From: Leucoraja erinacea
Taxonomy: Eukaryota
Assembly: GCF_028641065.1 (NCBI RefSeq)
Contig: NC_073406.1
Location: 6,324,001 to 6,388,000 of the forward strand
Length of the DNA stretch: 64,000 nt
Direction of reading: 5' to 3'
The translations under genes and the position numbers were made by a program. Below the pieces are notes generated by a model. It saw nothing but the letters and a program-made list of their open reading frames with translations, ran no database searches and had not been told where the DNA came from. Shown piece by piece: positions 1 to 61,660 of this stretch (its first letter is position 1; each line of letters opens with the position of its first letter).

Positions 1-907
1 CAACCTTGGCTTTCTATGATCTCCCCTCTACCCAAGTTACCATTTCAATATCCTCGTGACACAATTCTTTGGACCTTTTTGATTCCCTTCATTTCTTTCC
101 CTCCCTAATTTCACCTTACTTTCTCTCCCCTCTTCCTTATCCCATGGCCTTTAGCAGCACCCCTTTCTTTGCCACCCTCTCCATTATTTGCCCTCCTTTC
201 CCAATTCCATAATTCCTTGTTTCTCCCTATGTTTCCCCTTCGTAATCCTCCTGTCTCTTTCCCTGTCTGCACCTGTAGCATCCACCCACTCTTCCTCCAT
301 GCTTATCTGAATATGGGATAGTTGTGAACTTTGTACTGTGCAAAATGGAATCTGTAGATTCAGTATCTCCAAGGGGAAGTACCTGGACATTGGAAGTTGA
401 GAAGTGTTCCATAACTTTGAAGGCATAAAAGGGTTAATTCAGTTTTGCTGTGTACATTTGCCGTTCTTGATGAAGGTGGCGCAATCACAAAGCAGAAAAG
501 GTGCCAGCAAAAGCATAAACCTTATCACAGAGTGGAGCAATAATTATTCTCCCTCAGGGCAGACTTTGAAATTTATGACGGAACTATCATGATTAAAGAA
601 CTGCACAATGTCCTGCTGACAGCTGGGAGGATCTGGCACTGACACGTGCCAGGGTTGCATTCCATTTACTTAACTCAGCCTGTAAACGAGGGCACTCTGT
701 ATTGTTCACGGAAGGGATAGGTTCAATTTAGCCCAAAGATGCAGGCAACAGATTAAGAAACACGACACCTAAAAATAAAAAAAAATCTGAATATGCTGTA
801 GTTACATAATAGGCCTGTGAGCTTCGTGAGCAGTAAAACAAGGGTAGACACAAAAAGCTGGAGTAACTCAGCGGGCCAGGCAGCATCTCTGGACAGAAGG
901 AATGGGT

Positions 908-935
908 GATGTTTCGGGTCGAGACCCTTCTTCAG
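908..935 (-). ncRNA. Minimal hammerhead ribozyme core (Penelope-type), CpG-mutated helix III
   Basis: Minus strand reads CTGAAGA-A-GGGTC-TC-GACCC-GAAA-CATC. Confidence 0.5.
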
Positions 936-1429
936 ACAGGTTAGGGATAAGGGAAAAGAGAGATATAGACGGTGATGTGGAGAGATAAAGAAGAATTAAT
1001 AAAAGATATGCAAAATAAGTAACGATGATAAAGGAAACAGGCCATTGTAAGCTGTTTGTAGGTGAAAATGAGAAGCTTGTGCAACTTGGGTGGGGGAGAG
1101 ATAGAGAGAGAGAGGGAATGCCGGGGCTGCCTGAAGTGAGAAAAATCAATATTCATATACCACTGGGCTGTAAGCTGCCCAAGCGAAATATGAGATGCTG
1201 TTCCTCAAATTTACGTTTAGCCTCACTCTGAAAATGGAGGAGGACAAGGAAAAAAGGTCTGTGTAGGAATGGGAAGGAGAATTAAAGTGTCCAGCAACCA
1301 GGAGATCAGGTTGTCCCACTTCAGGTAGCCCCGGCATTCACTCTCTCTCTCTCTCTATCCCTCTATCCCTCACCCACCCAAGTCGCACGAGCTTCTCATT
1401 TTCACCTTAAAAACAGCTTACAATTGACT

Positions 1430-2510
1430 AATAATTTAATAATAATTTATTTGTCATTCGAACATATAACTATACATTTGAACGAAATGTCGTTTCTCAC
1501 GGGGTTATGCTAGGTGCATAGCATTTGATATTGATGTAAGGTGCCAGTGTGTATTAGGTGAGGTGAGTTTGGGGGGGTGGCGGGGGGGGGGTGTTCATCA
1601 TTCTAGCAGCCAGGGGGAAGAAGCTGTTGCACATCCTGGTGGTGCTGGTCCTTGATGCTCCGGTATCTCATGCCGGACTGCAGAGGGGCAAAGAGTCCAT
1701 GGGAGGGGTGGGAGGAGTCCTTAATAATGTTGGAGGCTCTTTGGAGGCATCTTTTGTTGAAAATGTCCAGAATGGATGGGAGAGACTCGCCGATGATGTT
1801 CTCCGCTGTCTTGACTAATCGCTGCAGGGTCTTCCTGCTTGGTGCGGTGCAGCTCCCGTACCAGACGATGATGCAGCTGGTCATGAGGCTCTCTATGGCA
1901 CCTCTGTAGAACATAGAGAGGATGGGTGGGGGAAGCCTCGCTCGTTTCAGCCTCCTGCTGAGCCCTCCTGGCAACGTGTGTAGTGTTGAGGAACCAGGCG
2001 CGGTGCACCCCTGGAATTTCCACCCTCTCCACGATGGAGCCATTGATAAGCAGAGGGGAGTGGGCAGCTAGTGTTCTCCTGAAGTCTACAATCATCTCTT
2101 TGGTCTTGGTGACGTTCAGAGACAGATTTGTTGTCTTCGCACCAGTTCACAAGCTGCGCCACTTCCTCTCTGTCGACAGTCTCATTGTTGTCTCTGATGA
2201 AGCCCATCACTGTAGTGTTATCTGCAAATTTGATCATTTGGTTGGTGTTGTGCTTGGCGGCACGGTCCTGGGTAAGTAGTGTGACTAGTAGTGGACTAAG
2301 CACACAGCCTTGGGTAGCTCCGGTGTTCAGGATGATGGTGTTTGAGGTGGTGTTGCCAACACGGACTGACTGTGGTTGATGTCTTAAGAAGTCCAGGATC
2401 CAGTTACAGAGGGGGGTATTGAGGCCGAACAGGGAGAGCTTCCCCACCAGCTTCTGAGGGATGATCATTTTGAATGCCGAGCTGAAGTCAATGAATAGCA
2501 TTCTAGTGTA
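1430..2510 (-). mobile_element. Rex1/Babar-type LINE, 5'-truncated RT (frameshifted)
   Basis: [76 protein letters not shown]. Confidence 0.8.
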
Positions 2511-4229
2511 AGTGGACTTTTATTTCTTTATTTATTTGCTTATTTATTTATTTATTTTTAAGAGCCTGGTTCCTTTATCGGCATCACTTTTTTTGCATAT
2601 CTTTCATTCATTGTTATTTATTTCTCCACATCACCGTCTATATTTCCCTTTTCCCTTATCCCTAACCAGTCTGAAGAAGGGTCTTGACTCAAAACATCAG
2701 CCATTCCTTCTGTCCAGAGATGCTGCCTGGCCCGCTGAGTTATTCCAACTTTTTGTGTCTATCTTTGGTTTAAACCAACAACTACAGTTCCTTCTTACAC
2801 AGTAAAACAAGGGGTGAACAGAAGTAAATAATTCAGAGTCAATATTCTGGGCTAATAAAAGATGAAACAAAATGACACGGACTGGGAGTTAATTCTGTGG
2901 CAATGCAATGTTGCAAAATTTGGGGAAAGGACTTATCAATGCTGAACAAGGTTCATGTGCAAGTTTTAAGTCTAAGATGTGAATCATGATACCACAAAGT
3001 GCTATTTCAATAGATCTTTGCTGAAATTTGGAATGAGACAAGACATGTACCAGGGTGCCAGACGAGAAGGAACCCTGGTACATGTCTTGCTTCATTTTAC
3101 GGTCTAATCACTTTTACAAATCACCCAAGCAAGCAGCTGTTGATTAGTGGAGCATTTCAAAACATTGACTTTCTAGCAGGATGAGGTCAGGGTTTTATTT
3201 GATAGCATGTCAAGTCCAAACATGCTTGTTTTTATACACCTATCTACAGGATATAATAAAGGCAAATTTCCTGAGGACCTCCTTACAGTGTCCTAAAAAT
3301 ACCGCGCAGCTCTCCCTCTGTGAATATTGACACAGTTTCAGATATCCTCCTTAAGATTCTGTCACATCCACTTACACGGCCCAGGCATCCCTTATAAATA
3401 CTAACATACCAATGGGTATCATCGATAATGCCCGACATACGATTAGTCATCCCCTATTAATAATAACACAGCCTCAGCCAGTCCCAGCAAATATTGCCAA
3501 ACTCCTGGTCATCTCCTCGTAAATCCTGTACATTCAGTATCAGGATGTTGAGCTTAATGAAAGAGAGGTTGATGGAGAGTTGAGCAGATGTGCATTGTAA
3601 TGGATACGATGCTATGCGTGTAGAATGCCAGACTTAGTCACTGCAATGCAATGTAGGTGAGTGGGAAGTTGGATTGAGTGAGTAAAAGTCTGAGTGGAGT
3701 GAATTGAGCACGTAGGAATATTGGAAGGATGAGTGTCAGCGATTGATTCTTTCCCTTGATTATTTTCCAATTGGTTTCTTCTTTGAAACCATTACTTGTA
3801 ATAATTATTGGTGCATGATTGACATTGCATGGTATTGTTTCATGATGTATCTGCATAAAAGACAGCTTTGATCTCAGGTTATTAGCTATTTCTCCATTTG
3901 TTTTACCCCTGCAAGACATTTCATGCCATGAACGTCATCTGAAAGGCACTTTATAAGATGATTGATTTTATGGGTGAATGTTACATGTTCCTTCATGGAT
4001 TTTCTTGATCATTACCTACTGTTCATTGTTTTCCTGTTTTCTCTCTTTCTGAAGGGACAGTCTCTTGTTTAGCCTCTATCCATTGCTTTACCAGGTCAAT
4101 TTTTCACACCAGAGCCCAGTCTTTGGAATGTCAGAAGAACTTCCAGCTGTAGAGAATGCTGCAACACAGTCAAAGACCACCCTCATGCATACTTTTCAAT
4201 GGGAGTCCCTGTTCAGCAATCGTAATGCT

Positions 4230-60578: not shown

Positions 60579-61373
60579 AAGAGTCAATCTGAAGAAGGTT
60601 CCTGACCTGAAACATTGCCTGTGTATTTCCTCCAGAGACACTGCCTGACCCGCTGTTACTGCAGGACTTTGTTTTGCTCAAGATTCTAGCACTCGAAAGA
60701 AAAAGCTTTTGCCTCATCTTTGTCTTAAATCAGTAGCTTCTTTTAAACATAACTCTCACTTCTATATTCTTCCACGAGAGGAAATGTCCTCTTCACATCC
60801 TCCCTGTTGAGATCCTTCAAGATCTTATACATTTTAGCAAATGATCTTATTCTTTTGAACTCCTGTGGAAAGGTGCGTAATTAGACAAATCTTTCCTTAT
60901 AAGACAATCTGCTCATTCCTTGAAGCCCAAGAAACTGCAAATGCTGGAATCTTGAGCAAAACATAAAGTGCTGGAGGAACTTGGGGGGCCAGGCAGCACA
61001 TGTGGAGGGAATGGACAGACATTGTTTAGGGTCGGGGCCCTTCTTCAGACTGATGGAAAAGGGAGGAGAAAGCTTATGGATCTACACTGTGCTCATGAAC
61101 CTGTAGAAGCTCCTGGATTTATGTTTACATTTTAATAACTTGATTCTTGTTTTCAAATCTGTCCAAGATATTGCTGCTACTTGTCTATGTAACCTCCCCT
61201 AGCACAATCCTCTGATCTCCAAATCTCCCTCTGTCAATCATTGCTAATTTCAGTTGTTTCACATTTGCAGCTAATTAATATCTTGACTTTCTCATTCTAA
61301 AACTCTTTGGCTACCAACCTCCTTATTTTATTTAAAATGGTCATTATAATTTACCCAAGCAAATACCCAACAG

Positions 61374-61500
61374 TCAGGGCCAGCCTTAAGACAATTGGAC
61401 CGATTGCCCCCAATTGGGCCCCGCGCCTAAGGGGGCCTCGCGCTAATTTTCCGTATTTTGTACGGAAATACGAATTTGCGTTGTTAAATACAGATTATTT
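61374..61500 (+). mobile_element. hAT-like DNA transposon left end (truncated)
   Basis: CAGGGCCAGCCTTA start followed by GC-rich gggccccgcg..ggggcc subterminal motifs; no matching right end found. Confidence 0.4.
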
Positions 61501-61513
61501 TTTTTTTAACATT

Positions 61514-61660
61514 CCCCCCCCCCCCCCCCCCCCCCCCCCGACATCAGTCTGAAGTAGGGTCTCGACCCAAAACGTCGCCTATTCCTTCTCTCCACAGATG
61601 CTGCCTCACCCGCCGAGTTTCTCCAGCATTTTTCCAGCATCTGCAGTTCTTTCTTAAACA
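61514..61660 (+). mobile_element. Penelope-derived mini-element with poly-C head
   Basis: Poly-C then gacatcagtctgaagtagggtctcgacccaaaacgtcgcc...ctccagcat; aacatt on both sides. Confidence 0.65.

What the first reader, a model, noticed from the sequence alone, without database searches (positions are those of the whole stretch)
845..61660. Window-wide family of short Penelope-derived repeats each carrying a minimal hammerhead ribozyme core
Seen: the commonest SINE-like repeat here (cores near 908, 2670, 4533, 6357, 10962, 12590, 19759, 30086, 37593, 38381, 39800, 42519, 46418, 58382, 60589, 61025, 61549) has consensus CTGAAGA-A-GGGTC-TC-GACCC-GAAA-CGTC, and it is the 3' continuation of GIY-YIG/RT fragments (6296-7030, 11500-12685). 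Known: CUGANGA and GAAA flanking helix II, followed by NUH, form the hammerhead core. Penelope-like elements carry minimal type I hammerheads whose very short palindromic helix III (here ACGU) favours dimeric cleavage. Inference: this lineage amplified a ribozyme-bearing repeat to roughly one copy per 3-4 kb, including inside slc45a1 introns. Most copies are damaged at CpGs (CGAAA->CAAAA, ACGT->ACAT). Helix I is weak, so activity is unproven.
Basis: partly seen in the sequence, partly recalled or inferred. Interest (0 to 1): 0.7.

Follow-up and report, generated by a model that had tools for sequence, protein, structure and literature searches.

The report
Million Penelope stubs with hammerhead motif
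The repeat is the roughly 100-135-base end piece of a Penelope-type jumping gene, present at about a million places in this ray- or skate-like fish genome; it carries an already described miniature self-cutting-RNA motif that is broken in most copies, and the way the copies start suggests they are likely dead by-products copied from uncut RNA up to its front end.

Summary
Observation confirmed; interpretation mostly known. A profile finds 26 segments in the window and 454 in 1 Mb of random genome (0 in the reversed control), about a million genome-wide; 117,950 sites match the core pattern (control 482). The motif lies 80-300 nt behind the GIY-YIG stop codon of a Neptune-type Penelope element (30 of 42 endonuclease ends). 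It fits the minimal hammerhead of Cervera and de la Pena 2014 (extra base after A9, palindromic ACGU). But helix I is only 2 bp, helix II shows no covariation, folding favours a blocking alternative, and only 35 of 247 copies keep core plus helix II (1 in the window). Both core-bearing copies in slc45a1 introns are antisense. No sign of cutting: 5' ends do not pile up at the cut (7 of 333), and no U6 is joined there. Instead 130 of 178 copies reaching the core's front edge stop there (-6..+3), at an initiator-like site, likely run-off from the RNA's 5' end. This scan has noted the same family many times in this genome and others. Self-cleavage untested.

The parts
834..1313 (-). Penelope 3' fragment: end of GIY-YIG ORF (1127-1313), 3' UTR, core 908-935 (ACGT to ACAT), tail
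2564..2801 (+). 3' UTR piece, core 2671-2698 (G12 and G16.2 lost), full tail to +131
4448..4568 (-). copy with core 4533-4563; boxes intact but 3-nt duplication before helix II
6294..7031 (-). internally deleted Penelope: RT motifs (6624-7010), ORF end, 3' UTR, core 6356-6383 (A6 to C, ACAT), tail
6249..6294 (-). adjacent tail piece of a more diverged copy
7060..7116 (+). diverged tail piece, inverted, next to the 5' truncation of the 6294-7031 element
10959..11021 (+). copy with first half of the core only (deletion through helix II and GAAA)
11482..12682 (+). Penelope Zn-finger linker and GIY-YIG end (11482-11921), 3' UTR, core 12591-12618 (damaged), tail; split by a LINE insertion
11922..12469 (-). 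LINE 3' fragment (CR1-like, label from my recall) inserted into the Penelope ORF end, 5-bp duplication ACATT
14095..14153 (-). tail-only copy
17094..33379 (+). host gene slc45a1 (proton-associated sugar transporter A), 8 coding exons
19697..19782 (-). degenerate copy in a slc45a1 intron, antisense to the gene
27620..27680 (+). tail-only copy (starts at +31, no core) in a slc45a1 intron, sense
30023..30119 (-). best copy in the window: core 30086-30113 with all catalytic bases and helix II, helix I 1 bp; slc45a1 intron, antisense
35316..35755 (.). three old, diverged pieces (35316-35398 -, 35467-35504 +, 35684-35755 +)
37257..37295 (+). short tail piece starting near the predicted cut (+27)
37593..37682 (+). 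short copy starting at C3; G12 to A
38376..38511 (+). short copy -6 to +130; core 38382-38409 (G12 to A, ACAT)
39738..39916 (.). head-to-head inverted pair joined inside helix II; right arm deleted through the core
42517..42548 (-). core-only degenerate copy
45435..46046 (+). older Penelope: GIY-YIG fragment, 3' UTR, tail end; core deleted
46319..46450 (-). short copy -5 to +131; core 46418-46445 (U4 to G, C15.2 to A)
58256..58407 (-). degenerate core (58380-58407) separated from its tail (58256-58333) by about 45 other bases
60584..60672 (+). degenerate short copy, core 60589-60616
60929..61054 (-). degenerate copy -6 to +123
61543..61660 (+). copy behind a poly-C run; core 61549-61576 (A9 to T, G12 to A)

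Best explanation
The repeat is the terminal repeat (pseudo-LTR) of a 3.4-kb Penelope-like retrotransposon with a minimal hammerhead motif, and most of its roughly one million copies are likely dead run-off products that the element's reverse transcriptase copied from uncut RNA up to the RNA's likely 5' end. Shown: the motif sits on the coding strand 80-300 nt after the endonuclease stop codon; in full-size elements the same block recurs at the front, followed by the start of the ORF and a retained intron; 3' ends fall in two clusters (about +92-96 and +123-131, C3 = +1); about three in four copies that reach the front edge of the core stop at -6..+3; most copies span the predicted cut site intact. 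Inferred: transcription starts at the initiator-like YCAGTCT just before the core; reverse transcription starts inside the RNA at two sites downstream of the motif (as shown in vitro for the anole element); when it starts on the front repeat it runs off after 95-135 nt and is pasted in alone, as a head-to-head pair, or after a jump back into the RNA. Inferred: in the master RNA the ribozyme is held off by a 2-bp helix I and a competing hairpin and would cut only as a dimer or with the element's protein; such a cut would fall about 21 nt before the AUG. Single genomic copies decay neutrally and likely do not cut host RNA.
For: Penelope link: 30 of 42 endonuclease C-terminal ends in 1 Mb have the block within 600 nt downstream on the same strand; 95,381 first-look candidates for the endonuclease piece; RT hit PF00078 at E 1.2e-4; Cx4CxxC linker and CCHH/GIY-YIG motifs read; full-size L256 and L257 have repeats about 3.4 kb apart around RT-EN. 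ORF start and intron: GT-AG intron of 121-137 nt, phase 0, in frame with an AUG at +50 in L254, L261, L262, L264. 5' edge: 130 of 333 good copies end at -6..+3, hazard 0.081 per nt vs 0.007-0.012 at +12..+45 (Fisher p 3e-53); seen in all four subfamily groups (71 of 92, 31 of 40, 18 of 33, 10 of 13); DNA in front of short copies is ordinary flank (median pyrimidine share 0.52 vs 0.80 in long copies); 16 of 27 tandem copies with an internal jump rejoin at -6..+1 (3 of 30 had no second repeat). Uncut template: 7 of 333 5' ends at +27..+30. Two 3' end clusters match the internal start sites and 'tail' of PMC11167929, where ribozyme mutants did not affect insertion and cleavage needed the protein. 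Blocking fold: RNAfold on 3 of 3 real copies gives helix II pair probabilities of 0.0; RNAalifold on 53 copies pairs GGGU with +29..+32.
Against: No RNA data place a start site: no raw RNA reads were available. The expected cap-derived extra G was not shown: G at -4 was 42 of 100 and 36 of 100 against 15 of 100 at a control position, but 6 of 12 G cases inspected were inverted-arm junctions and solo copies had 6 of 19, near background. The edge is fuzzy (-6..+3), junctions carry microhomologies and extra bases, and my reference ended at -6, so a few unrecognised UTRs may sit in that bin. Many long elements have an upstream repeat that extends into the UTR and endonuclease (L253, L254, L258, L260-L264), which needs an extra template jump or read-through RNA. 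The in-frame AUG at +50 holds for one subfamily group; in the commonest group that frame meets a TAA (consensus). Catalysis itself is untested; helix II has no covariation above shuffles.
Confidence: 0.75

Rival explanations
1. The motif is a non-catalytic relic in this lineage, kept because the same bases serve as promoter or protein-binding signal at the front of the element's RNA.
For: Helix I is 2 bp or less in 38 of 42 descriptor hits; no subfamily with a 4-bp helix I and intact C3 was found (0 matches); no covariation; a blocking fold is preferred; no U6 joined at the cut (0 of 30 loci; 0 pattern matches); one subfamily has U at position 17.
Against: All catalytic bases, the extra base after A9, G10.1-C11.1 and the ACGU palindrome are kept across subfamilies whose UTRs have turned over; the variable places in helix I and II are U-A to U-G, which keep pairing; PMC4209133 reports a 2-bp helix I in D. 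virilis; the anole ribozyme cuts only with protein (PMC11167929).
Confidence: 0.35
2. The pile-up at -6..+3 is a stall or DNA-level joining hot spot of the reverse transcriptase on a longer RNA, not the RNA's 5' end.
For: A pyrimidine-rich or poly-C tract begins just upstream in all subfamilies; junctions are fuzzy; the cap-G test was inconclusive; hazard already rises at +4..+11 (0.023-0.032).
Against: The barrier lies past helix II, where a structure stall would be expected (no peak at +17..+26 apart from tandem units); it is as strong in subfamilies without poly-C (71 of 92) as in the poly-C one (18 of 33); short re-copied pieces in front of copies start at the same edge.
Confidence: 0.25
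3. The short copies come from an independent non-autonomous element (SINE- or retrozyme-like) that borrows the Penelope enzyme.
For: 192 of 247 core-start copies have no element sequence upstream; short tandem pairs with two motifs 200-400 nt apart exist.
Against: Short and long copies share subfamily changes in all four groups; 3' ends fall inside the ORF start of the full element; tandem pairs have a different junction in each copy.
Confidence: 0.1
4. Copies derive from RNA cut at both ribozymes and rejoined into circles, as proposed in PMC4209133.
For: A rejoined circle would also span the cut site intact and could give tandem copies.
Against: A circle has no end at -6..+3, yet most copies stop there; no 5' ends pile up at the cut; PMC11167929 found no RNA reads ending at the cut in the anole.
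Confidence: 0.08

Closest known systems
Minimal type I hammerheads (min-HHR) in pseudo-LTRs of metazoan Penelope-like elements (Cervera and de la Pena 2014, PMC4209133; read: main text parts 1-2 of 4, search in 2 supplement files, one file not searchable; figures not seen)
   Same: CUGANGA and GAAA boxes, unpaired base between 9 and 10.1, G10.1-C11.1, palindromic 15.2-16.2 with no loop 3, place in the terminal repeat, mostly single dispersed copies.
   Different: Helix I is 2 bp (4-5 bp described for schistosome motifs, 2 bp for the D. virilis variant); helix II 4 bp; 117,950 core-pattern matches against about 4,000 and 9,000 motifs reported for coelacanth and Xenopus (different descriptors, so not strictly comparable); no cartilaginous fish named in the parts read or the files searched.
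Poseidon element PAc of Anolis carolinensis (Frangieh et al. 2024, PMC11167929; read: parts 1-2 of 4)
   Same: Hammerhead in the repeat next to the ORF start; two internal start sites of reverse transcription that make an optional tail; uncut RNA is the template.
   Different: PAc's start codon lies inside the ribozyme, here about 21 nt after the cut in one subfamily group; a pile-up of 5' ends at the ribozyme's front edge is not described in the parts read; this element has the Neptune-type linker.
EN+ Penelope-like elements, Neptune clade (Craig et al. 2021, PMC8557442, introduction and passages; Arkhipova et al. 2013, PMC3846280, passages; Schostak et al. 2008, PMC2377424, passages)
   Same: RT plus C-terminal GIY-YIG, Zn-finger-like linker, partial tandems, inverted 5' arms, 30-40-bp tail, retained intron, promoter inside the repeat.
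   Different: In D. virilis the start site is 46 bp before a 75-bp intron that ends at helix I; here the intron lies after the ribozyme, inside the ORF, and the likely start is next to the core. Clade was assigned by the linker motif only, no tree.
Animal non-LTR retrozymes (Li, Clavereau and Pollet 2026, bioRxiv 10.64898/2026.07.22.740005; read: parts 1-3 of 5; supplements closed)
   Same: Type I hammerheads related to Penelope repeats; reported in the one chondrichthyan sampled; 8 of 9 tested dimers did not cut.
   Different: The window copies are single or head-to-head, not head-to-tail arrays with an intact motif in each unit.

Membership tests
EN+ Penelope-like element | ORF with RT and C-terminal GIY-YIG endonuclease with CCHH | tested here: met
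   Pfam support is weak (RVT_1 E 1.2e-4, below cut-off; GIY-YIG E 0.1), motifs read by eye
EN+ Penelope-like element | pseudo-LTRs from partial tandems flanking the ORF | tested here: met
   L256, L257, L258, L253
EN+ Penelope-like element | inverted 5' arm and optional 30-40-bp tail | tested here: met
   63 of 247 core-start copies have an inverted arm; two 3' end clusters
EN+ Penelope-like element | retained spliceosomal intron | tested here: met
   121-137-nt intron with donor and acceptor found in 12 of 14 loci examined, in frame in 4; splicing not shown in RNA
Neptune clade | CX2-5CxxC linker between RT and EN; placement in an RT tree | tested here: inconclusive
   linker present (CNRKKCYTC); Nematis shares it (PMC8557442); no tree built
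min-HHR of PLEs | core boxes CUGANGA, GAAA, UH | tested here: met
   consensuses; 117,950 vs 482 control; intact in 52 of 247 copies
min-HHR of PLEs | extra base after A9, G10.1-C11.1, palindromic 15.2-16.2 | tested here: met
   41 of 42 descriptor hits have the extra base; 33 have ACGT
min-HHR of PLEs | helix I of 4-5 bp as in the typical motifs | tested here: not met
   2 bp in 25, 0-1 bp in 13, 3-4 bp in 4 of 42; 0 matches for a 4-bp form. Filed therefore as a short-helix-I variant, as in D. virilis; the paper's descriptor figure was not seen
min-HHR of PLEs | compensatory changes in helix II | tested here: inconclusive
   91% of cells paired, 2 cells changed on both sides, 374 of 500 shuffles as high; the subfamilies are too alike to test this
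min-HHR of PLEs | self-cleavage as dimer or with protein | not testable with these tools
   indirect genomic signs absent
Rfam hammerhead families | cmscan match | tested here: not met
   no hammerhead family among 10 hits at E<=10 in the window
non-LTR retrozyme | head-to-tail units each with a complete hammerhead | tested here: not met
   no such pair in the window; irregular two-copy tandems occur elsewhere
SINE | own short master distinct from the autonomous element | tested here: not met
   short and long copies in all four subfamily groups; RNA polymerase III boxes not tested

The most novel reading that the evidence does not exclude
Penelope elements make a retrovirus-like 'strong-stop' DNA: reverse transcription starts inside the front repeat, runs off the capped 5' end just before the hammerhead, and jumps to rebuild the terminal repeat; this genome holds hundreds of thousands of such intermediates frozen in DNA, and the ribozyme at the very front of the messenger is a protein-triggered switch that removes the cap.
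Probability: 0.3. Interest if true: 0.65.

Novelty: new member of a known kind. Interest (0 to 1): 0.3.

Why it matters
The motif and its link to Penelope elements are published, so the finding as written is ordinary. Two things give it some value. Scale: the block alone covers about 3.8% of the sampled DNA (38,210 of 1,000,000 bases), far more motifs than reported for other vertebrates. Mechanism: how Penelope elements rebuild their terminal repeats and what their hammerheads do are open questions, and the ends of these copies give a sharp, cheap prediction (RNA start at -6..+1, uncut template, run-off DNA of 95-135 nt). An effect on host genes is unlikely on present evidence.

Tried and rejected
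Rfam scan: no hammerhead hit. Splice acceptor at CAG|T before the core, joined to the donor-like site at the ORF end: 5 genomic matches, which read as UTR variants; rejected. Cap-derived G at -4: enrichment vanished once inverted junctions were set aside; inconclusive. 5' ends at the cut site: none above background. U6 joined at the cut: 0 of 30 fetched loci (48 matches found) and 0 pattern matches; absence is weak evidence. Subfamily with a 4-bp helix I: 0 matches. Covariation: not above shuffles. Sequencing runs: no RNA holder listed, contigs only; laying four runs on L057:1500-2200 could not show RNA ends or strand, and no GT-AG joint was among the rows shown. Pfam missed the short window fragments. 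Lower mismatch rates in core than tail within clusters were not used, since clusters mix subfamilies and copies were anchored on the core. Paper searches for a report in cartilaginous fishes gave none that bears on it; the library lacks most subscription journals, and the supplements of the 2026 preprint were closed.
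Full report
Observation. The 17 places named all hold the repeat. A profile built from 52 seed copies finds 26 segments in the window and 454 in 100 fixed-position 10-kb stretches of the genome, with none in the same stretches read backwards. 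That is one segment per 2.2 kb, about a million in 2.19 Gb (my extrapolation; the two arms of an inverted pair count twice), and 3.8% of the sampled bases. The exact 28-mer occurs 15,042 times, control 0; the core pattern CTGANGA-N10-18-GAAACGTH 117,950 times, control 482. The host gene is slc45a1, 86-91% identical to ray proteins over the exon tested, with eight coding exons at 17094-33379 on the plus strand.

What the repeat belongs to. In the 1-Mb sample, 30 of 42 endonuclease C-terminal ends have the block within 600 nt downstream on the same strand. The stretch between stop codon and core is pyrimidine-rich, 80-300 nt long and unrelated between subfamilies; the shared block starts at about -6 (C3 = +1). 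A 601-codon open frame at L058 shows RT motifs, a Cx4CxxC linker and GIY-YIG with CCHH (RVT_1 E 1.2e-4). The linker points to Neptune or Nematis (PMC8557442, introduction); no tree was built. Full-size elements have the block at both ends about 3.4 kb apart (L256, L257). Behind the front block lies a 121-137-nt intron; in L254, L261, L262 and L264 an AUG at +50 opens 35-37 codons in frame with the exon after it. So the repeat's tail is also the start of the ORF in that subfamily group; in the commonest group that frame meets a stop. In the window, Penelope coding pieces lead into the block at 834-1313, 6294-7031 and 11482-12682 (split by a LINE fragment), and at 45435-46046 the core is deleted.

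The hammerhead motif. The consensus reads C3 U G A A G A9, an extra A, GGGU-YYCG-RCCC, G12 A A A15.1 C G U16.1 and C or U at 17. This is the minimal motif of Cervera and de la Pena 2014 (PMC4209133, main text parts 1-2): extra base between 9 and 10.1, G10.1-C11.1, palindromic 15.2-16.2, dimer needed, low activity in vitro, already reported for fishes, coelacanth (about 4,000) and Xenopus (about 9,000). No subfamily with a 4-bp helix I and intact C3 was found. On 53 aligned copies 91% of cells pair, but changes on both sides are no more frequent than in shuffles; the only common change is U-A to U-G. Among five subfamily consensuses (4-18 copies each) 1 of 13 core columns and 19 of 62 tail columns vary (p=0.16, or 0.03 without the CpG column). 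Folding three real copies gives helix II probabilities of 0.0; in two the strand GGGU pairs with +29..+32 instead, and RNAalifold picks the same pairing. The hammerhead-shaped dimer without helix I scores -12.7 kcal/mol against -21.1 for the best dimer. Rfam does not detect the motif.

State of the copies. Of 247 copies that include the start of the core, 52 keep all boxes and 35 also keep helix II; CpG sites in the core decay at 17-27%. In the window one copy passes (30086-30113), with a 1-bp helix I. The two core-bearing copies in slc45a1 introns are antisense; the sense copy has no core. No two intact cores lie head to tail in the window.

How the copies were made. Of 454 hits, 7 were dropped at stretch edges and 114 for low score, identity under 80% or not reaching +80, leaving 333. 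Their 5' ends are rare inside core and tail (0.007-0.012 per nt at +12..+45; 7 ends at +27..+30 around the cut), then 130 of the 178 that get that far end at -6..+3 (0.081 per nt), and 48 go on into a UTR. All four subfamily groups show this. DNA in front of short copies looks like ordinary flank. In 30 loci chosen for the sequence that follows the tail, 27 have a second block downstream and 16 of these rejoin at -6..+1 after a variable piece of the element's front. 3' ends cluster near +92-96 and +123-131, like the two internal start sites of reverse transcription shown for the anole element, whose ribozyme was not needed for insertion and cut only with protein (PMC11167929, parts 1-2). YCAGTCT at the edge fits the initiator consensus YYANWYY (consensus recalled). 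I read this as run-off from the 5' end of uncut RNA, with insertion alone (129 of 247), head to head (63 of 247) or after a jump. The start site is inferred. The cap-G test failed to confirm it, a splice explanation was rejected, and no raw RNA reads were available. U6 fusions at the cut, a possible sign of cleavage in cells, were not found.

Earlier notes of this scan. 119 notes in this genome fit 'Penelope hammerhead' and 1,591 across at least 64 genomes hold the search words. Several reach the same reading. I had the 5' pile-up before the first look-up; the term 'strong-stop' and the U6 test came from those notes, which are unchecked and are not counted as support.

Verdict. Real and very abundant; a new member of a known kind. 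The hammerhead label is right as a motif, unproven as a catalyst, and irrelevant for nearly all single copies. What is worth following is the record of the copying mechanism in the ends. Interest 0.3.

Noticed in passing
L170:1380-1660 (G000:C5:36593969): A 5'-shortened U6 copy without poly-A is joined head to head with a Penelope short arm, the pair flanked by a roughly 20-bp duplication; suggests the Penelope enzyme copied U6 as the second arm.
   Followed up: partly
L009, L107, L123: Tandem units of about 66 nt that restart at +22 of the block and lack the CUGA box.
   Followed up: no
L203-L232, L236: Short tandem copies with two hammerhead blocks 200-400 nt apart on one strand, each with its own junction; natural candidates for a dimer cleavage assay.
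   Followed up: partly
L254, L261, L262, L264: Retained 121-137-nt phase-0 intron near the start of the Penelope ORF, downstream of the ribozyme.
   Followed up: partly
window 11922-12469: LINE 3' fragment inserted in reverse into the Penelope ORF end; 89% like window 26801-27147.
   Followed up: yes
window 40954-41101: Near-perfect inverted repeat of about 148 nt (Rfam microRNA hit far below cut-off); MITE-like.
   Followed up: no
window 21162-21819: GC-rich stretch of direct and inverted repeats inside a slc45a1 intron.
   Followed up: no
window 50390-51620: GC-rich region with short tandem units and C runs around the N stretch.
   Followed up: no
alignment A1, columns 26 and 38: Positions +17 and +29 change from A to G together in one subfamily; both can pair with the same GGGU strand, in the active and in the blocking fold.
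   Followed up: partly
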